Shown here one piece after another: positions 1 through 5,943 of a DNA stretch of 5,943 nt. Location of the stretch: the IMG/VR virus record IMGVR_UViG_2713897140_000009, positions 1-5,943 of that record. One strand, given 5' to 3'. Both the position numbers and the translations under genes were made by a program. The notes under the pieces were generated by a model. The model ran no database searches, was not told the DNA's origin, and saw nothing but the letters and a program-made list of their open reading frames with translations. Position 1 is the stretch's first letter; every line of letters begins with the position of its first letter. Source of the DNA: a virus. Lineage: Duplodnaviria > Heunggongvirae > Uroviricota > Caudoviricetes.

Positions 1-20
1 GCCCTGGAAATACCCCACAG

Positions 21-58
21 CCCCGAAAAAGAGCCAGTCAGTTGCTTAACTGACTGGC
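21..58 (-). terminator. Rho-independent terminator-like hairpin
   Basis: Perfect 11-bp stem GCCAGTCAGTT/AACTGACTGGC (33-43/48-58) with loop GCTT; on the minus strand the stem is followed by TCTTTTTC (complement of 24-31). Confidence 0.4.
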
Positions 59-240
59 ATTAACCGTAAGGGTTGGTTTTTTCTTGGCACGAGAGTATTC
101 AAAACGCGCCAATAACTACTTGATTTAATTGAAGTCGAAAATTTTAAGTCAAAAATCGTATAGCTTAACGTGTAGCTAAAAATGTTTGCTGCAAAAGTAT
201 ACAATTTTAACCGTTATGACTCCCTGTTATCCGCTATCAA

Positions 241-408
241 GCTGGTGGATGATCACTGATAACTCGTATGGGAATCCCCATATCGGCATCATGCCCATGC
301 CATAACAAAAACCCCATATTCGTGGGTTTTCTGTGTTGTGGCTATTCTGCCGTTGCCGTGCTGGTGGATATTTCCGGTATGTGGCTCACCATATCGGCAT
401 CATGCCCA
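241..408. repeat. Imperfect ~120-bp tandem duplication: GCTGGTGGAT (241-250, 360-369) each followed by the 20-bp repeat CCATATCGGCATCATGCCCA (278-297, 389-408)
   Basis: Exact 20-bp direct repeat and exact 10-bp direct repeat read directly from the sequence; spacing between the 10-mer and 20-mer differs between copies (27 vs 19 nt). Confidence 0.6.
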
Positions 409-626
409 CCAGCGTGATTGGTTGCTGGTGGGCTGCATCACCATCATGGTGATGATGCAGTGAATGTAAGGATTACTTAGGTTAGGGGCGTAACTCATTG
501 TCATTTTTTGAGCAGACCGGGAATCTCCGGTTTGGTTACTCTGTAACCAAGTCAATTTTATTTACTCTGTTGTGAGGGACTATAAGTTCTGCGCAAATTT
601 CCCCGGTTTCCTCAAATTGAGTTTCT

Positions 627-1066: not shown

Positions 1067-1451
1067 CTACCGCCGCAACCGTTCCGGCTTCTTCCACTGG
1101 TAAGTATTTTTCATGCTCTCCCTCCGTTGTTGAGAACGGCGACGGTATGCCAGCAACTCAAGGACTCTGGTTCGTATGTTGCGCATATCCACGCCGTTAA
1201 GCTCAATACCGTCACGGCGCATAACCTCAGCAACAACACGCGCATAGTTTTCGGCTGTCACGCTGTCCGGCTGCGTGGCCACCTGTTTGCCTGTTGCCTG
1301 ACTGATTCCGGTAATACGGCGGATTACTTTCAGTAGTTCGGCGTCGGTCATGGTTATGGTCTCCATAGTGATGGGGGAACAATTTCTGTAATCTGCGAAG
1401 CTGGCGATCGGTCAGACTCAAATGCCTGGCAACTTCAGTCTGAGTAGCCAC
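1067..1451 (-). CDS. Nu1-like (small terminase / Rpp-like) HTH protein, apparently frameshifted; would be 127 aa if the C5 run at 1373-1377 were C4
   Basis: GTG start at 1451 preceded by GAGGTG at a 5-6 nt spacing. N-terminus VATQTEVARHLSLTDRQLRRLQKL resembles the Nu1 winged-HTH (MEVNKKQLADIFGASIRTIQNWQ) and sits about 210 nt past cosN, as Nu1 does in lambda. That frame degenerates into low-complexity sequence after about 28 codons, while a protein-like reading frame (track ORF 1067..1366) continues in a different frame. A 1-nt change in the C5 homopolymer joins them. Confidence 0.5.
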
Positions 1452-1526
1452 TGTTCACCTCGCCAAAAAATCTCCCCTCATGCGTTTTAAACATGCATCT
1501 TGCGAACAACTTTATGAAACGCGGCA

Positions 1527-1706
1527 TATATGTCCGGTTTGAGTGTTCAATTTTTGCGCATGTCCGGTTCACGGAAAGTGAATTTTTATATTTTTCAAAT
1601 AGTTAACTCCCAGAAAAACCGGACATGGTTTCCGAAAAATTTTCATAAATAGTGAAATTCTGCGCCGCTCCCGCCCCGTAACGGGTCCATATGCCGGAAA
1701 GGACCC
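1527..1706 (-). other. Lambda-type cos site: cosQ (1694-1706), cosN region (1662-1680), conserved cosN-proximal block (1633-1656), and three ATGTCCGGTT repeats in R-site positions (1530-1539, 1560-1569; inverted copy 1617-1626)
   Basis: Minus strand reads ACGGGTCCTTTCCGG-N14-ACGGGGCGGGAGCGGCGCAGAATTTCACTATTTATGAAAATTTTTCGG, against my recall of lambda ACGGGTCCTTTCCGG-N14-ACGGGGCGGCGACCTCGCGGGTTTTCGCTATTTATGAAAATTTTCCGG. cosQ and the cosQ-cosN spacing are identical; the 12-nt cohesive-end position reads GGGCGGGAGCGG versus lambda GGGCGGCGACCT. The three 10-bp repeats (two direct, one inverted, with an AT-rich spacer) occupy the place of lambda R3/R2/R1 but differ in sequence. Confidence 0.6.
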
Positions 1707-1708
1707 GT

Positions 1709-1731
1709 AAAAAAAGCCGGATTTCTCCGGC
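1709..1731 (-). terminator. Rho-independent terminator of the capsid cassette
   Basis: Minus strand GCCGGAGAAATCCGGC followed by TTTTTTT, starting 5 nt past the stop of the 137-aa ORF. Confidence 0.65.
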
Positions 1732-1736
1732 CTGTC

Positions 1737-2150
1737 TCAGATGGTTTTCAGTATGCGATCGATGTCGCCGTCATCGCCCGGGTTTCTGCCATCGTATGCC
1801 ATGCCAGCTGATACGGCTTTCGGGCTGTGTATGTCCATAAAGTTTTCAAAGGCTGCGGTAAGCTCTGGTGCAACCTTCTGGCGTTCCTGCTCTATGGTCA
1901 TGCTAAGAATGCTTTTAGCCGTACCAACATCGATACAAGGCACGTTTGCCATTGCACGTAACAGCGGCTGATAGTCGCCAGATTCATCAAGCGCCATAAT
2001 CGCATCAGCGCGCGGCTTGTCCTGCTCTTCCAGTTTGTTAAGTTGATATATGGCCTCGTAGGTTGATAACCCTCTGTCAGCCATTGCCCGCGCTTCGGCT
2101 TTAAATTTACTCGCCAGCGGTAGCGCCATGATGCTTTCATTCGTTGCCAT
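1737..2150 (-). CDS. Hypothetical 137-aa protein, last gene of the capsid cassette
   Basis: ATG at 2150 with AGGGGGAA 4-5 nt upstream, starting 13 nt after the gpD-like stop, followed by a terminator. Protein-like composition; I do not recognise the family. Its position and size are similar to lambda FI, but no sequence similarity is seen. Confidence 0.6.
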   Translation of the reverse strand: MATNESIMALPLASKFKAEARAMADRGLSTYEAIYQLNKLEEQDKPRADAIMALDESGDYQPLLRAMANVPCIDVGTAKSILSMTIEQERQKVAPELTAAFENFMDIHSPKAVSAGMAYDGRNPGDDGDIDRILKTI

Positions 2151-2162
2151 CGTTCCCCCTGC

Positions 2163-2498
2163 TTATCGGGCCAGCGGCTGAACGGATACGCCAGAACCCG
2201 TAAAGGCGGCGCATTTTTTCGCATCGGTGTCGACGCTCTCAGGCCAGTTAACGGCGGCAATATTGAATATCCCCGTCTTGTAACACTGTGCTGATTTCTG
2301 CTTTGACGTGTCCACGGGGTACGCCGTCAGATAAACAGCCTTGCCAGATTCCTGACCATCCCACGCCTTAAACTCGCCATTGTCCGCCAGCATCAGCGGG
2401 GTAAATTCCTGAATAACGCCAGCATCAGCGGCAAAATGTACCAGCGTCGTGGCGACCTGCTGACTGCCTGCAAATAACTCAACATATGGAGTGCCCAT
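2163..2498 (-). CDS. Head decoration protein, lambda gpD-like (111 aa)
   Basis: TPLMLADNGEFKAWDG, YKTGIFNIAAVNWPE and KKCAAFTGSGVSV align with lambda gpD TPLMLDTSSRKLVAWDG, YKSGTFRYEDVLWPE and KKRTAFAGTAISIV. Same length class; GGGAGA Shine-Dalgarno 6 nt upstream of the ATG. Confidence 0.85.
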   Translation of the reverse strand: MGTPYVELFAGSQQVATTLVHFAADAGVIQEFTPLMLADNGEFKAWDGQESGKAVYLTAYPVDTSKQKSAQCYKTGIFNIAAVNWPESVDTDAKKCAAFTGSGVSVQPLAR

Positions 2499-2509
2499 AG
2501 AATCTCCCG

Positions 2510-3565
2510 TTAACCAATTTTGACGGTAACAAATTTGCGAATATCTGCCGGAACCGGCTGCGGTGCGCTGTGCGTCTGCACGTACTCAATCGCCGGATCG
2601 CCGTCCTCAATCCAGTTTTTCGGGTAAAACATGTTTTGCGTTGCGCCCGTTCTTACTGCGTCCTGATCCATAATCGCACCATAGGCCACCAGCCCTTTAT
2701 TGTTGGTGTTGCCCAGGACAAGCAAATCAGGCTCAAGGAAATATTTTTCGGTGCCGTCGCTGTCGGCGTATTTGCCGGAATAGACGATAAGGGCAATATC
2801 GCCCAGATAGCCTTTAAAGCTCACCACTTCGCCCAGGTTTTTACACGCCAGCTCTGCGGCGGATTCTGAACCACGGGAAAGATCGTACAGCTCGCGGAAT
2901 TTTTTAAAGCTGCGTAACGTTCGCCATACCTCAGCGCCCATAATCATGACGTTGGCGGGGCAGCTGGCCTGTTCGGCGTATAGCTCGATGTCATCTGTCG
3001 GATCATGCGTCTCTTTATTCTGCTCAGACCATTTTTTTCCTGGCCCCTGATGGACAATGCAGTTTGCCGGCATATTCCAGTCGATTTCATAGCGTTCTAT
3101 GCCTTCGCCTTCAATGATGTTTTTTCCGGTCGTGACCGCATTCACTGCCAGCCATTCCACACGCGCTTTAATGGCGTTTATCTGGCGGCGCATGTTGCCA
3201 GTAATGAGGCGCATACGTCGCCAGGTGGGGTCGTTAAGCTGTGCCGGATCTTCTCCAGCCATGCGCATAATGGTTTTTGATGGATCGATTTCGTGCTTTG
3301 GCTTCATGTAGCCGGGGCGGATAGTGCTTGTTTCGTACCCTTTATCGCGCTGAACCTGGCTACCCACCATAGGCGAACAAAACGCCGACATGGTGACTTC
3401 TTCAATATCCAGGGTATCCAGCATGATGTCCTGCGTGTTGAAGGTCGCCACGTTCGGAAAAAACAGCGACGTAAACAGCGGACTGAATCTAAAATCCGGA
3501 ACATCCTGCCGATTCAGGTACGCGAAAAGCTGGTTAGTGTTAAGAGCCGTTGCTTTACCTGCCAT
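2510..3565 (-). CDS. Major capsid protein, lambda gpE-like (351 aa)
   Basis: Multiple co-linear blocks shared with lambda gpE: FRFSPLFTSLFF vs FKFDPLFLRLFF; PGYMKPKHEIDP vs PGYVKPKHEVNP; DPTDDIELYA vs DPTDDIEAYA; YPKNWIEDGDPA vs YPKNWVTTGDPA; similar length (351 vs 341 aa). Confidence 0.92.
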   Translation of the reverse strand: MAGKATALNTNQLFAYLNRQDVPDFRFSPLFTSLFFPNVATFNTQDIMLDTLDIEEVTMSAFCSPMVGSQVQRDKGYETSTIRPGYMKPKHEIDPSKTIMRMAGEDPAQLNDPTWRRMRLITGNMRRQINAIKARVEWLAVNAVTTGKNIIEGEGIERYEIDWNMPANCIVHQGPGKKWSEQNKETHDPTDDIELYAEQASCPANVMIMGAEVWRTLRSFKKFRELYDLSRGSESAAELACKNLGEVVSFKGYLGDIALIVYSGKYADSDGTEKYFLEPDLLVLGNTNNKGLVAYGAIMDQDAVRTGATQNMFYPKNWIEDGDPAIEYVQTHSAPQPVPADIRKFVTVKIG

Positions 3566-3771
3566 TATTCACCCCCGTGAACCTGATTCATGCCCAACGC
3601 CGCACGTAAATAGGCGCGCACCTGCCAGCCTGTTGACGGCTCAACCATTGCCAGCGGATCAAGTCCTGCCGCAATGCTCGCTTTTACGTTCTGCTGGTGG
3701 CGTTCCTTGAGTGCCTCCACGATGTCGGGGCTTATGTAGACTGTAACCCCACCTTTTTTCTCTTCTGCCAT
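3565..3771 (-). CDS. Small hypothetical protein (68 aa from the ATG at 3771; track ORF extends to 3804), translationally coupled to the capsid gene
   Basis: The ATG at 3771 has AAGAGGAA about 9 nt upstream, whereas the upstream ATG at 3804 has no Shine-Dalgarno. Its TAA stop overlaps the gpE-like ATG (TAATG). Family not recognised. Confidence 0.5.
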   Translation of the reverse strand: MAEEKKGGVTVYISPDIVEALKERHQQNVKASIAAGLDPLAMVEPSTGWQVRAYLRAALGMNQVHGGE

Positions 3772-3804
3772 AGTCAGAAATTCCTCTTTGACGTTAAAAA
3801 TCAT

Positions 3805-3855
3805 AACTGGATGTTCATCCAGTTATGATTATAATCATGATTTCATATTTCGCAA
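3805..3855 (-). promoter_or_regulatory. Candidate sigma70 promoter of the capsid cassette (-35 TTGCGA at 3850-3855, 16-nt spacer, -10 TATAAT at 3828-3833) overlapping two dyad operators
   Basis: A perfect TATAAT lies inside the perfect 14-bp palindrome ATGATTATAATCAT (3825-3838). Immediately downstream is the dyad AACTGGATG-N2-CATCCAGTT (3805-3824). Prediction by eye only. Confidence 0.35.
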
Positions 3856-3930
3856 TAATATCGATCCATGTTGCAAATTATGAAATGATTTCCGGAAACA
3901 GTAGTCACCATGCTGTTAACCTCATATATG

Positions 3931-3974
3931 AAAAAGCCCGCTAAGTTTGCCTCCTGTACTTATCGGGCTTTTTT
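3931..3974. terminator. Bidirectional terminator-like hairpin (A5 - interrupted 10-bp stem - T6)
   Basis: AAAAAGCCCGCTAAGT...ACTTATCGGGCTTTTTT: stem flanked by an A-run on one side and a T-run on the other, so it could terminate on either strand. Confidence 0.35.
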
Positions 3975-4020
3975 ATCTGCCTGCAAAGGTGTCGAACAAA
4001 AAAACAATCAAAATCGACAC

Positions 4021-4064
4021 CATAAAAATAAAACCACTGTAATATCAATCCATTACAGTAGTGG
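4021..4064 (-). terminator. Terminator-like hairpin (second in tandem after the SSB gene)
   Basis: 8-bp stem ACTGTAAT/ATTACAGT (4036-4043/4052-4059) with an 8-nt loop; on the minus strand it is followed by TTTTATTTTTAT. Confidence 0.35.
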
Positions 4065-4101
4065 TGATGACGAATGAAATTTCAAAAACTAGCCTTTTTC
4101 C

Positions 4102-4145
4102 GCGCCGCTCCCGCCCCGTGGCAGGTCACTACACCGGGAGGACCC
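4102..4145 (-). other. Second cosQ/cosN-like segment, lacking the ATGTCCGGTT R-repeats
   Basis: The 18-mer GCGCCGCTCCCGCCCCGT (4102-4119) is identical to 1662-1679. It is followed after the same 14-nt spacing by a slightly degenerate cosQ (minus strand GGGTCCTCCCGG, 4134-4145). The surrounding ~75 bp is about 80% identical to 1660-1735. Confidence 0.45.
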
Positions 4146-4185: not shown

Positions 4186-4608
4186 TTAAAACGGTATGTT
4201 ATCCCCGTACGGATCATCATTTCCCGCCTGTTGTTTTGCTCTGCTCAGTGCATCAGCAGCCTGCCCCTGTTGGCCTTTTTTGCCGCCCGGTCGCGCCGTT
4301 CTCGCACTGATTACGCTGTCTGCGATAACCTGCCAGCCCTGCCGCATTTCCCCGTTCTGTCCGGTCCACTGGCTCACCTGCATGTTACCCGCCACGCTCA
4401 GGGGTTCACCCTTGCGGTGCTTTGCCAGTGCTTCGGCCTGTCTGCCAAACGCCAGGACGGATAACCACATCGTCGCCGTTCCGTCATCGGCCTGGCTGCA
4501 CGGCAGGGGAACCGCCATACTCGCCATCGCCATTTGTGTCCCTTTGCTGGTGGTCTTTAACTGCGGGTCAGCCACCAGCCGCCCGTAAGCTGCTATCTGT
4601 GCTGTCAT
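4186..4608 (-). CDS. ssb: Single-stranded DNA-binding protein (SSB-like, 140 aa) with a C-terminal acidic IPF tail
   Basis: FGRQAEALAKHRKGEPLSVAGNMQVSQWTGQNGEMRQGWQVIA aligns with E. coli SSB [43 protein letters not shown]. Gly/Gln-rich linker and C-terminal DDPYGDNIPF (E. coli DDDIPF). Its ATG overlaps the upstream stop (ATGA). Confidence 0.75.
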   Translation of the reverse strand: MTAQIAAYGRLVADPQLKTTSKGTQMAMASMAVPLPCSQADDGTATMWLSVLAFGRQAEALAKHRKGEPLSVAGNMQVSQWTGQNGEMRQGWQVIADSVISARTARPGGKKGQQGQAADALSRAKQQAGNDDPYGDNIPF

Positions 4609-4862: not shown

Positions 4863-4911
4863 TTTTGTTTTTACCCCCCTCGTTTAAAAAGTTTTGGAGA
4901 TACCCCCACCT

Positions 4912-5138
4912 TGTCTACCTTATCTACCTGGTGGATGCTCAGGCCAGTAATGACGCGGGTTTTATGGTGGTAGACAGTAAAAAATCTCTGTCTACCTGAT
5001 GTCTACCCATCCCTCCGACTGGCTACAAAAACAGGTAGACAAGGTAGACAGCTTGTAGACAGTAAAAAAAAGCTGTCTACCTAAATTAATACACTGAATT
5101 AAAACAACTTTTATGTAATCAGGTAGACAAGGTAGACA
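4912..5138. repeat. Iteron-type replication origin: 11 copies of the 8-bp iteron GGTAGACA/TGTCTACC in both orientations, interspersed with A-tracts
   Basis: TGTCTACC at 4912, 4989, 5000, 5074 and a variant at 4921; GGTAGACA at 4969, 5034, 5043, 5122, 5131 and a variant at 5055. Tandem pairs have a 9-bp period. AGGTAGACAAGGTAGACAG occurs twice (5032-5050, 5120-5138). A-rich tracts at 4976-4984 and 5062-5070 could act as an unwinding element. Lies directly downstream of the rep ORF. Confidence 0.65.
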
Positions 5139-5152
5139 GCAATTGCCAAAAA

Positions 5153-5878
5153 TTATAAAAACGCGTCGCAATCGTCGGTTGTTATTGCGTTAGTCTGCGT
5201 CACTCCATTAATTTTTCGCGTAATATATTCATGTCCGTAAACTTTTGCGGCTGGCTTCATGGCCTTGCCAAAGTCATTTACGTTTAGTGGTTTGGTTCTG
5301 CCTGCGTATGCCATAAACGCCAGATAGACGCGGTAAAGGCTGTTTCTGGTCGTGTACTTCACGGAATCGCCACCGCCACCCATCATCAGGCCACGTGCTT
5401 CCTCCAGAAAATTCAGGAACTGGCAAAACTCAATAACCGGATCCGTTTGCTGCTTTATCGCCAGTGCTTCATCACCGTCACGCTGTTCCAGTAGTAAAGC
5501 CCGCGCCTTTTCAGGGTCTGCAAAGTTCGCCAGTAATCGGCGGATAATGACGGGGATTTCAGCCGCAATCTTTTCCGGTAGTTCCCTGTCTTTTTCGGCC
5601 TCGTTGACGATATTGTCGAAACGGAAAATCACGCGACGACGTGCCACGCCTCCGGCCCGTTCGGTGAATATCATCGGATTGTTATTGGTTGCCAGCACCA
5701 CCGCCCTGATTACCGCCGTAAAACGCTTTTCATATTTCGGGTTAATTTCCACGGGGTCGCCGCCCGTGATTTTCTTGATGCCCGTTCCTTCGCCTGTATA
5801 TTTCGGCTGGTCTGCCAGGACGATAAGACGACTCCCGACAACCTGTGCACGCCCACCAGCATCATCAAGCGATGTCAT
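5153..5878 (-). CDS. Replication protein resembling the C-terminal region of P4-family (D5-like) primase/SF3 helicases; no Walker A in this ORF
   Basis: GSRLIVLADQ (Walker-B-like region), KKITGGDPV, VVLATNNNP (SF3 motif-C-like TNNxP), RRRVIFRFDN and ELPEKIAAEIPVII match the conserved post-Walker-A pattern of P4 alpha-type proteins as I recall it. No GxxxxGK[ST] motif is present. The ATG overlaps the stop of the upstream ORF (ATGA). Confidence 0.6.
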   Translation of the reverse strand: MTSLDDAGGRAQVVGSRLIVLADQPKYTGEGTGIKKITGGDPVEINPKYEKRFTAVIRAVVLATNNNPMIFTERAGGVARRRVIFRFDNIVNEAEKDRELPEKIAAEIPVIIRRLLANFADPEKARALLLEQRDGDEALAIKQQTDPVIEFCQFLNFLEEARGLMMGGGGDSVKYTTRNSLYRVYLAFMAYAGRTKPLNVNDFGKAMKPAAKVYGHEYITRKINGVTQTNAITTDDCDAFL

Positions 5879-5943
5879 CTCAGCGCTGATATGACTTTCC
5901 GTGTCAAACCGGAATCTCTAATTTTGACGATTTTCTTTTTAGG
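5875..5943 (-). CDS. 3' end of an upstream ORF continuing beyond the window (C-terminus ...PKKKIVKIRDSGLTRKVISALR)
   Basis: The only minus-strand frame open to the window edge; its TGA overlaps the rep ATG. Too short to identify. Confidence 0.3.
   Translation of the reverse strand, partial: PKKKIVKIRDSGLTRKVISALR

What the first reader, a model, noticed from the sequence alone, without database searches (positions are those of the whole stretch)
1527..1706. Lambda-homologous cos site with a different predicted cohesive end and novel R-site repeats
cosQ (GGGTCCTTTCCGG), the 14-nt cosQ-cosN spacing and the cosN-proximal block CTATTTATGAAAATTTT match lambda as I recall it. The 12-nt cohesive-end position reads GGGCGGGAGCGG instead of GGGCGGCGACCT, and lambda's R3/R2/R1 are replaced by three copies of ATGTCCGGTT (two direct 30 bp apart, one inverted, separated by an AT-rich spacer). 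This is the pattern expected for an element that uses a lambdoid large terminase for cutting but redirects recognition through its own small-terminase-like protein.
Basis: partly seen in the sequence, partly recalled or inferred. Interest (0 to 1): 0.7.

Follow-up and report, generated by a model that had tools for sequence, protein, structure and literature searches.

The report
Helper-phage cos site copied into satellite
This is a genuine lambda-type DNA-packaging (cos) site, but it belongs to a small E. coli phage satellite that has copied the cutting and recognition sequences of a resident lambda-like prophage, not evolved its own recognition system, so it is an ordinary member of a known kind.

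Summary
The sequence features are real. On the minus strand, 1706→1527 reads cosQ (identical to lambda), the same spacing, cosN, the 17-bp I2 block (identical), then three exact ATGTCCGGTT copies with an IHF-like site. The predicted cohesive end is GGGCGGGAGCGG.

The window is a degraded EcCICFT073-family PICI satellite. Window 1380-1679 (cosN, cosB, Nu1 leader and the first 24 Nu1 codons) is about 96% identical to lambda-like prophages that continue into a full 169-aa Nu1 and a gpA. The same R boxes occur in phage PhiR12_1, a CFT073 prophage and EcCICFT073's second cos. They resemble phage 21's annotated CATGTCGG boxes.

The island has no TerS or Rpp, only the 24-codon Nu1 stub. All three complete genomes with this island are among the eight of 5,426 that carry the matching prophage.

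The cohesive-end variant changes only bp 7-12, the half known to vary naturally. It is shared with mEp460-like phages and with a second, mEp460-type cos at 3989-4145.

Best reading: the island mimics its helper's cos and is packaged by unmodified helper terminase.

The parts
1714..1733 (-). Intrinsic terminator hairpin after the 137-aa scaffold-like gene; its T-run abuts cosQ
   Evidence: Terminator scan. The same hairpin-cosQ junction is seen in EcCICFT073 and the IHE3034 island.
1694..1706 (-). cosQ (GGGTCCTTTCCGG), the packaging-termination element
   Evidence: Identical to lambda and at the same distance from cosN.
1660..1681 (-). cosN. The predicted 12-nt 5' cohesive end GGGCGGGAGCGG is at 1665-1676. 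The CG dinucleotides flanking both predicted nicks are conserved.
   Evidence: Gap-free alignment to lambda, phage 21, PhiR12_1 and mEp460. The exact 18-mer occurs in 85 IMG/VR loci. Nick positions are inferred by homology, not measured.
1636..1652 (-). I2 block CTATTTATGAAAATTTT (lambda bp 25-41)
   Evidence: 17/17 identical to lambda. It overlaps the annotated I2 IHF site of phage 21. It is invariant in 12 distinct related cos sites.
1617..1626 (-). R3-equivalent TerS box (ATGTCCGGTT), at bp 51-60 from the predicted left end
   Evidence: Same position as lambda R3, bp 51-66. Invariant in 12 distinct related sites.
1593..1605 (+). I1-equivalent IHF-like site TTTCAAATAGTTA, between R3 and R2, flanked by an A/T tract
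   Evidence: 12/13 match to WATCAANNNNTTR. The match count is not above chance on its own; the position matches I1 of lambda and 21.
1560..1569 (+). R2-equivalent box, inverted relative to R3
1530..1539 (+). R1-equivalent box. It has the orientation of R2, unlike lambda and 21, and lies inside an imperfect palindrome (1517-1540).
   Evidence: The arrangement is the same in phage PhiR12_1 and in the cos1-type prophages.
1380..1451 (-). Remnant of the phage Nu1 (TerS) gene: GTG start plus 24 codons, then loss of homology
   Evidence: The first 24 aa are identical to PhiR12_1 Nu1; the L016-type prophage Nu1 matches 23 of the 24 (95.8%). Both phage proteins are 169 aa. The locus is annotated as a pseudogene in RefSeq.
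1380..1679 (-). Block of 300 bp, 95.7-96.7% identical to the cosN-cosB-Nu1 5' end of lambda-like prophages
   Evidence: BLAST against L016, L043, L047, L053 and L076.
3989..4145 (-). Second cos site (cos2), same orientation. cosQ-like element at 4134-4145, cohesive-end position 4105-4116 (same GGGCGGGAGCGG), perfect IHF consensus at 4043-4055. It lies 2,440 bp from cos1.
   Evidence: 94.3% identical to the cosQ-cosN-cosB region of phage mEp460. The same 2,440-bp spacing is seen in IMG/VR islands L013 and L041.

Best explanation
The region is a complete lambda-type cos site (cosQ, cosN, I2, R3, I1, R2, R1) in a phage satellite of the EcCICFT073 PICI family.

Its right-hand part, from cosN through cosB and the Nu1 leader to Nu1 codon 24, is a copy of the cos of a lambda-like prophage lineage that lives in the same genomes. 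The island has no small terminase and no Rpp.

The likely mechanism has these steps, all inferred:
1. After helper induction the island replicates into concatemers.
2. The helper's own 169-aa Nu1-type TerS binds the ATGTCCGGTT boxes, with IHF bending the DNA at I1.
3. TerS positions the helper's gpA-type TerL on cosN.
4. TerL nicks 12 bp apart, giving 5'-GGGCGGGAGCGG ends.
5. DNA is packaged towards lower window coordinates until a cosQ-cosN is met in a filled head.

A second cos, 2,440 bp away, copies the cos of an unrelated helper type (mEp460) and has the same cohesive end.

Shown here: the anatomy, the homologies, the absence of TerS and Rpp, and the co-occurrence with the prophage. Inferred: the nick positions, TerS binding to the boxes, and actual mobilisation.
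For: - Island identity. The locus carries int, an HTH regulator, Icd-like, DUF4222, primase, iterons, ssb, a gpE-like capsid gene, a gpD-like decoration gene and a scaffold-like gene. Window 1643-3974 is 91.5% identical to EcCICFT073, with the same gene order.
- Alignment. cos1 aligns without gaps to lambda and phage 21 cos from cosQ to R3. The R3 core lies at bp 51-60, against lambda R3 at 51-66.
- Phage origin. The 300-bp block is about 96% identical to five IMG/VR prophage loci. Those continue into a full-length Nu1 (PF07471) and, in L016, a lambda-like A-W-B-C-D-E module.
- Same stub in other islands. Six island-size IMG/VR loci carry the same 24-codon Nu1 stub. They fall into two lineages with different cosQ sides.
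- No island terminase. No TerS or Rpp is found in the island.
- Co-occurrence. All 3 of 3 island-bearing complete genomes are among the only 8 of 5,426 with the exact prophage cos/Nu1. Two IMG genomes hold both island and prophage.
- Conservation. Across 12 distinct related cos sites, the I2, R3, I1, R2 and R1 columns vary less than the spacers: 8 of 60 against 32 of 73, one-sided Fisher p = 1e-4.
- Literature. The right half of cosN tolerates change, natural variants exist, and TerL is positioned by TerS bound at R3 (PMC4669245; PMC9026076).
Against: - No experiment: the cohesive ends and the transfer are unmeasured.
- In the source-type genome VL7S7, the island primase is split by an IS110-family element. 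The matching prophage has gpA split by IS600 and its portal gene split by another island. This copy is probably not mobilisable by its resident prophage today.
- The cassette is rare: 3 of 591 family members among complete genomes.
- Among the closely related GAGCGG-type sequences alone, the functional elements are not significantly more conserved than the spacers (p = 0.25).
- The three complete genomes may be clonally related, so the co-occurrence is not three independent observations.
Confidence: 0.72

Rival explanations
1. The island has its own cosB, recognised by its own Nu1-like small terminase, which recruits a lambdoid large terminase. This is redirection, as with SaPI TerS, or with Rpp in EcCICFT073.
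For: Sister islands do work this way, or are built for it. EcCIIHE3034 has a 180-aa Nu1-family TerS next to a different cosB, and EcCICFT073 has rppA in the same slot (PMC6739421, PMC6092414). An ORF with a Nu1-like N-terminus starts at 1451.
Against: Only 24 codons are Nu1-like, and the remaining 50 codons are an alternative frame of the conserved 99-aa gene. The tail length differs between island lineages, 74 against 66 aa. There is no other TerS or Rpp in the island. The R boxes and the leader are about 96% identical to prophages with their own full-length Nu1.
Confidence: 0.05
2. A non-functional recombination scar. A piece of a co-resident prophage (cosN to Nu1 codon 24) replaced the island's terS or rpp cassette by accident. 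It now sits in a decaying island with no role in packaging.
For: This island copy is degraded: it is flanked by an IS4 end, its primase is split by an IS110-family element, and the resident prophage is also broken. The cassette is rare, 3 of 591. Conservation among the close relatives is not significantly concentrated in the elements.
Against: Every cos element is intact and correctly spaced. The copy differs from the co-resident prophage at about 4% of positions, yet keeps all three R cores, I2 and cosN, so it is not a very recent conversion. The same junction occurs in two island lineages and in several genomes. A second complete helper-type cos with the same cohesive end is maintained 2,440 bp away in several islands.
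Confidence: 0.18
3. The variant cohesive end marks a distinct cutting specificity. Only large terminases co-evolved with GGGCGGGAGCGG would cut this cosN, so cosN and not cosB would set helper range.
For: The variant differs from lambda at 5 of the 6 right-half positions. Both cos sites of the island share it.
Against: The variant is used by two TerL types that are only about 24% identical: mEp460 (700 aa) and the L016-type (642 aa). The L016-type TerL is 92% identical to the PhiR12_1 TerL, whose cosN is lambda-type. The left half and the flanking CG dinucleotides are unchanged. Published genetics show that changes at bp 7-12 are tolerated, and that lambda TerL cuts the N15 cosN equally well (PMC4669245).
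Confidence: 0.05

Closest known systems
Bacteriophage lambda cos (cosQ-cosN-I2-R3-I1-R2-R1, next to Nu1)
   Same: cosQ is identical. The cosQ-cosN spacing is identical. [quoted passage not shown] The 17-bp I2 block is identical. R3 is at the same distance from cosN. There is an IHF-like site between R3 and R2. R2 is inverted.
   Different: bp 7, 8, 9, 11 and 12 of the cohesive end differ. The R-box sequence is ATGTCCGGTT instead of CGTTTCC-type. R1 has the orientation of R2. The adjacent Nu1 gene is a 24-codon stub.
Phage 21 cos (M81255, annotated R boxes)
   Same: The layout is the same. The R-box core is CATGTCGG in phage 21 (R3 AATCGTGTCGGTACTT, R2 AAGGTCCGACATGAAA, R1 TTTCATGTCGGGCCTT), against CATGTCCGG here, a difference of one extra C.
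   Different: Phage 21 has the lambda cohesive end, and its R1 has the orientation of R3. The N-terminal DNA-binding region of the 169-aa Nu1 that goes with ATGTCCGGTT is not alignable with lambda Nu1. BLASTP aligns only the C-terminal halves, and the Pfam Nu1 match covers residues 71-150.
cos of lambda-like phage PhiR12_1 (PV340549) and of the CFT073 prophage at 1.348 Mb
   Same: The same ATGTCCGGTT R3/R2/R1 boxes, I1 and I2 are present, with a 169-aa Nu1. PhiR12_1 Nu1 matches the window stub at 24 of 24 residues.
   Different: These phages have the lambda-type cohesive end GGGCGGCGACCT. The prophages with both the ATGTCCGGTT boxes and GGGCGGGAGCGG (L016-type) exist only as unannotated IMG/VR contigs and in 8 complete E. 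coli genomes.
EcCICFT073 (PICI) cos1/cos2 and the Rpp system (Fillol-Salom 2018, 2019; Murialdo and Feiss 2022)
   Same: Same island family and same gene order. The capsid-decoration-137aa module is 91.5% identical. Both have a terminator-cosQ-cosN junction, two cos sites per island, and the same 93-99-aa gene after the slot. EcCICFT073's second (inverted) cos carries the same ATGTCCGGTT boxes.
   Different: EcCICFT073 cos1 has a PICI-specific cosB without R repeats and is read by an Rpp-TerS heterodimer. Here the slot holds a phage cosB with three R boxes and no rpp. The cohesive end also differs. The second cos here is direct, lies upstream of the capsid operon, and is mEp460-type.
cos-type staphylococcal islands (SaPIbov5, SaPIbov4) that carry the helper phage cos
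   Same: The strategy is the same: no island terminase and a copy of the helper's cos. SaPIbov4 also has two putative cos sites, and SaPIbov5 has a capsid-protein homologue (as described in PMC6092414).
   Different: The sequences are unrelated and the host is Gram-positive, with HNH-dependent cos phages. The resemblance is in how it works, not in family membership.
Gifsy-1 and N15 natural cohesive-end variants
   Same: Variation is confined to bp 7-12. Gifsy-1 reads GGGCGGCAGCGT and differs from the window variant only at bp 7 and 12 (PMC4669245).
   Different: The window, mEp460 and L016 variant changes five positions. I found no paper containing this string in a phage context.

Membership tests
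Lambda-like cos site | cosQ element upstream of cosN at a fixed distance | tested here: met
   13/13 identical to lambda, with 17 nt to the predicted nick in both.
Lambda-like cos site | cosN with a conserved left half of the 12-nt cohesive end and conserved CG flanking both nick positions | tested here: met
   ACG|GGGCGGGAGCGG|CGC against lambda ACG|GGGCGGCGACCT|CGC. The criterion is taken from PMC4669245.
Lambda-like cos site | Terminase actually introduces nicks 12 bp apart, giving 5' cohesive ends | not testable with these tools
   Inference by homology only. The linear assembly of mEp460_4F5 breaks 5 bp upstream of the predicted nick, which is weak indirect support.
Lambda-like cos site | cosB with R3 about 50-65 bp from the left end, an IHF site I1, and an inverted R2 | tested here: met
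   R3 core at bp 51-60. IHF-like site (12/13) at bp 72-84. R2 inverted at bp 108-117.
Lambda-like cos site | R1 in the same orientation as R3 (lambda, 21, phi80, Gifsy-1 layout) | tested here: not met
   R1 (1530-1539) has the orientation of R2. The same holds in phage PhiR12_1 and the L016-type prophages. It lies in an imperfect palindrome.
Lambda-like cos site | Cognate Nu1-type terS gene immediately downstream | tested here: not met
   The island keeps only 24 codons. The full gene is present in the prophages with the same cos.
EcCICFT073-type PICI using Rpp | PICI gene set (int, regulator, pri-rep, iteron ori, about 11-13 kb) with synteny to EcCICFT073 | tested here: met
EcCICFT073-type PICI using Rpp | rpp gene next to cos1 | tested here: not met
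   No tblastn hit for RppA in the island (best E = 2.2, outside the island). The slot holds the Nu1 stub.
EcCICFT073-type PICI using Rpp | PICI-specific cosB without phage R repeats | tested here: not met
   Three phage-type R boxes are present, about 96% identical to the prophage cosB.
Satellite with its own small terminase (EcCIIHE3034, SaPI1 type) | Full-length terS encoded by the island | tested here: not met
Satellite carrying a copy of the helper's cos (SaPIbov5-like strategy) | cos near-identical to that of a phage present with it, and no island terminase | tested here: met
   About 96% over 300 bp. The prophage is present in all 3 island-bearing complete genomes.
Satellite carrying a copy of the helper's cos (SaPIbov5-like strategy) | Helper-dependent, cos-dependent transfer | not testable with these tools
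   Needs induction and transduction assays.

The most novel reading that the evidence does not exclude
In EcCICFT073-family satellites, the stretch between cosN and the conserved 93-99-aa gene is a swappable packaging-specificity cassette. It can hold rpp plus a PICI cosB, terS plus its own cosB, or a plain helper cosB.

On this reading, this lineage has given up redirection for pure mimicry of two unrelated helper types: a lambda-like one through cos1 and an mEp460-like one through cos2. The cohesive ends of the two sites are kept identical, so that DNA cut at one cos and finished at the other can still circularise.
Probability: 0.35. Interest if true: 0.45.

Novelty: new member of a known kind. 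Interest (0 to 1): 0.3.

Why it matters
The site adds a third way of filling the packaging slot of the well-studied EcCICFT073 satellite family. Besides Rpp and an island TerS, the slot can hold a straight copy of the helper's cosN and cosB.

It also gives a natural example of cosQ, cosN and cosB being reshuffled between phages and satellites.

The R box ATGTCCGGTT, paired with a divergent 169-aa Nu1, and the GGGCGGGAGCGG end are ready-made reagents for testing TerS-DNA specificity and tolerance of cohesive-end variation. None of this changes current understanding of cos packaging.

Tried and rejected
- TerL co-variation. I asked whether the cohesive-end variant tracks the large terminase. It does not: two TerLs about 24% identical share it, and two TerLs 92% identical differ in it.
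- Rpp or TerS in the small ORFs. The 99-aa ORF has no PDB or Pfam match and belongs to PHROG 1561, of unknown function. tblastn with RppA and TerS was negative.
- Structure-database match for the 169-aa Nu1. None was found by sequence.
- Two scans of the one-genome-per-species collection, for R3...R2 and for I2...R3 patterns. Both found nothing, so the spread outside E. coli remains unknown.
- Literature search for the cohesive-end string. It returned only unrelated G-quadruplex and primer papers. A search for papers on PhiR12_1 returned nothing relevant.
- Conservation test within the closely related GAGCGG-type sequences only. Not significant. It becomes significant only when the more distant PhiR12_1 and CFT073 sites are included.
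- The IHF consensus count in the window is not above chance. The I1 call rests on position and conservation only.

Full report
**What the window is.** The 5,943-bp window is almost identical (99.9%) to a chromosomal segment in three complete E. coli genomes: VL7S7, O121 201805972 and FDAARGOS_943.

In VL7S7 the segment lies between yejO and tRNA-Pro/yejM. It is the right-hand part of a roughly 12.8-kb island. The island carries an integrase, an HTH regulator, Icd-like genes, DUF4222, a primase split by an IS110-family element, ssb, a major capsid protein, a head decoration protein and small ORFs.

Pfam and PHROGs identify these window genes:
- 2510-3565, a lambda gpE-type capsid protein.
- 2163-2498, a gpD-type decoration protein.
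- 1737-2150, similar to the C-terminal scaffold part of head proteases.
- 4186-4608, SSB.
- 5153-5878, the C-terminal part of a D5-type primase.

Window 1643-3974 is 91.5% identical to the well-studied PICI EcCICFT073, with the same gene order: small ORF, capsid, decoration, 137-aa gene, cos, then a slot followed by a conserved 93-99-aa gene. The decoration-137aa-terminator-cosQ module is present at 90% identity or more in 591 of 5,426 complete E. coli genomes.

**The observation.** Read on the minus strand, 1706→1527 aligns without gaps to the junction of the lambda right and left ends.
- cosQ (1694-1706) is identical to lambda.
- The 17 nt between cosQ and the nick have the same length in both.
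- The first six bases of the cohesive end, and the CG dinucleotides flanking both predicted nicks, are identical.
- CTATTTATGAAAATTTT (1636-1652) equals lambda bp 25-41.
- The cohesive-end position (1665-1676) reads GGGCGGGAGCGG, differing from lambda at bp 7, 8, 9, 11 and 12.
- ATGTCCGGTT occurs exactly at 1617-1626 (minus strand), 1560-1569 and 1530-1539 (plus strand), far more often than chance allows.

In lambda numbering the three boxes lie at bp 51-60, 108-117 and 138-147. Lambda R3, R2 and R1 lie at 51-66, 110-125 and 151-166.

An IHF-like site (12/13 to consensus) lies between the first two boxes, at 1593-1605. Its count in the window is not above chance, so the call rests on its position.

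BLAST against all phage records recovers lambda, 21, Gifsy-1 and many lambdoid phages over the cosQ-I2 part, with E-values from 1e-12 to 1e-6.

**The R boxes are not new and not island-specific.** The same three boxes, in the same positions and orientations and with the same IHF-like site, are found in several places:
- Phage PhiR12_1 (PV340549), upstream of a 169-aa Nu1. The first 24 residues of that Nu1 are identical to the ORF starting at window 1451.
- A CFT073 prophage.
- An inverted second cos inside EcCICFT073 itself.

The annotated R boxes of phage 21 have the core CATGTCGG. The box here, CATGTCCGG, differs by one extra C.

One layout difference from lambda and 21 is that R1 has the orientation of R2. 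This is also true in the phages.

**The whole right side of the site is a phage copy.** The exact 18-mer ACGGGGCGGGAGCGGCGC occurs in 85 IMG/VR loci. Twelve of these have the cos1 arrangement.
- Five are in contigs of 16-50 kb and continue into a full-length 169-aa Nu1. In L016 this is followed by a lambda-type A-W-B-C-D-E head module.
- Six are island-size contigs that carry the same truncated Nu1 as the window.
- The twelfth, L085, lies in a 50-kb contig and ends before Nu1, so it could not be classified in this way.

Window 1380-1679 is 95.7-96.7% identical to the prophage sequences. Homology starts at cosN and ends after Nu1 codon 24. Left of cosN the window follows the island family, with a terminator hairpin fused to a lambda-like cosQ. 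The prophages have an mEp460-like cosQ side there.

The 74-aa ORF at 1227-1451 is therefore 24 Nu1 codons followed by an alternative reading frame of the conserved 99-aa gene. Its length differs between island lineages.

No TerS or Rpp homologue exists anywhere in the 23.8-kb island locus.

**Sister islands fill the same slot differently.** EcCICFT073 has a PICI-specific cosB plus rppA (144 aa). The IHE3034 island has another cosB plus a 180-aa Nu1-family TerS. Published work shows two things (PMC6739421, PMC6092414, PMC9026076):
- The EcCICFT073 cosB lacks R repeats and is read by an Rpp-TerS heterodimer.
- EcCICFT073 has two functional cos sites.

The window island lacks both proteins, and so fails those two membership tests. 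What it has is a plain copy of a phage cosB.

**Association with a matching prophage.** A 1.2-kb probe spanning the prophage cos, Nu1 and the start of gpA finds only eight complete genomes with full coverage at 97.8% identity or more. All three island-bearing genomes are among them. Two IMG genomes also hold both island-type and prophage-type loci.

The genomes may be related, so this is not three independent events. It does fit a helper-satellite pair.

In VL7S7 both partners are damaged. The island primase is split by an IS element. The prophage gpA is split by IS600, and its portal gene is split by a second, TerS-type PICI. This particular copy is probably a fossil of the arrangement.

**The cohesive end.** The variant is shared by cos1, by cos2 (3989-4145, cohesive-end position 4105-4116), by mEp460-like phages and by the L016-type prophages.

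It does not track the large terminase:
- The mEp460 and L016-type TerLs are about 24% identical, yet both are associated with this end.
- The L016-type and PhiR12_1 TerLs are 92% identical, yet their ends differ.

Feiss and colleagues showed three relevant points (PMC4669245):
- bp 7-12 vary naturally. N15 differs from lambda at bp 9 and 12, and Gifsy-1 at bp 8, 9 and 11.
- The left half and the flanking CG dinucleotides are conserved.
- Lambda TerL cuts cosN of N15 as well as its own.

My reading of Gifsy-1 (GGGCGGCAGCGT) reproduces their positions. It differs from the window variant only at bp 7 and 12. The different end is therefore real, but it is of a known, tolerated kind.

**Conservation.** Across 12 distinct cos sites of this cosB type, R3 and the I2 block are invariant, and R2 and R1 each vary at two columns. 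Between bp 15 and 147, element columns vary at 8 of 60 positions and spacer columns at 32 of 73 (p = 1e-4). Within the closely related GAGCGG-type subset alone the contrast is not significant.

**Mechanism and verdict.** The best-supported reading is cos mimicry. The satellite is cut and packaged by the helper's unmodified TerS-TerL, acting at a copy of the helper's own cosN-cosB.

A second complete cos copied from an unrelated helper type (mEp460, whose TerS is in the DUF1441 family) may widen helper range. Its identical cohesive end would allow circularisation of molecules that start at one cos and end at the other. That last point is inference.

The alternatives considered are an own-TerS redirection, an inert recombination scar, and a cosN-based specificity. 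They are weighed under rival explanations.

The finding is a correct observation of an ordinary, though neatly mosaic, member of a known kind.

Noticed in passing
window 3989-4145 (minus strand): A second complete cos site, 94% identical to the cosQ-cosN-cosB region of phage mEp460. It has the same predicted cohesive end as cos1 and a perfect IHF consensus at 4043-4055. It lies 2,440 bp from cos1 in the same orientation. IMG/VR islands L013 and L041 have the same spacing, and other island lineages have two such sites 2.5-3.35 kb apart.
   Followed up: partly
L099/L100 (NZ_CM177009.1 1173594-1186083): In VL7S7 the cos1-type lambda-like prophage has its portal gene split by a second, TerS-encoding PICI (int ... 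primase, ssb, capsid, decoration, 180-aa TerS). A satellite is thus integrated inside the helper-type prophage's portal gene. The prophage gpA is also split by IS600. IMG/VR locus L043 appears to show the same arrangement.
   Followed up: partly
L097 3163-3340 (NC_004431.1, EcCICFT073): EcCICFT073 carries, between rppA and the 93-aa gene, an inverted cos with a lambda-type cosN and a full ATGTCCGGTT R3/R2/R1 cosB. This matches the cosB type of a CFT073 prophage at 1.348 Mb (L098). It is probably the published 'cos2', for which no phage cosB was reported.
   Followed up: partly
L002 9668-9787, 10523-10642, 12964-13083 (IHE3034 island): The IHE3034 island has three cos-like sites. One has a lambda-type cosN next to its own terS. 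One is an inverted phage-21-like site (R3 CATGTCGG). One lies upstream and has a further cosN variant, GGGCGGGAGGCG.
   Followed up: no
window 1380-1679 compared with L016 and PhiR12_1 (L096): The cos1-type prophages are themselves mosaics. Their cosQ and cosN are mEp460-like, while I2, cosB, Nu1 and gpA are PhiR12_1-like. The switch falls just right of the cohesive end. In the window island a different switch, from island-type cosQ to prophage-type sequence, falls at the left edge of cosN.
   Followed up: partly
window 1737-2150 (minus strand): The 137-aa protein upstream of cos matches the C-terminal scaffold-like part of head maturation proteases (PHROG 53; 35% identity to the C-terminus of the L016 gpC homologue). 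The island therefore encodes capsid, decoration and a scaffold-like protein, but no portal, protease or terminase.
   Followed up: partly
window 1-65 and 5887-5943: The window starts with the end of an IS4 element, and homology to the intact primase ends at 5887, where an IS110-family element (ISSso6) interrupts the gene. The island copy is degraded.
   Followed up: partly
window 260-420 and 600-770: Short direct repeats lie in the non-coding stretch left of the island genes, for example ccatatcggcatcatgccca twice and ctccgaaaatatcaacgggttag-like twice. Their nature was not examined.
   Followed up: no
window 4900-5140: Clustered GGTAGACA(A)GGTAGACA iterons lie between the primase gene and the 85-aa ORF. 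They fit the replication origin expected 3' of pri-rep in PICIs.
   Followed up: no
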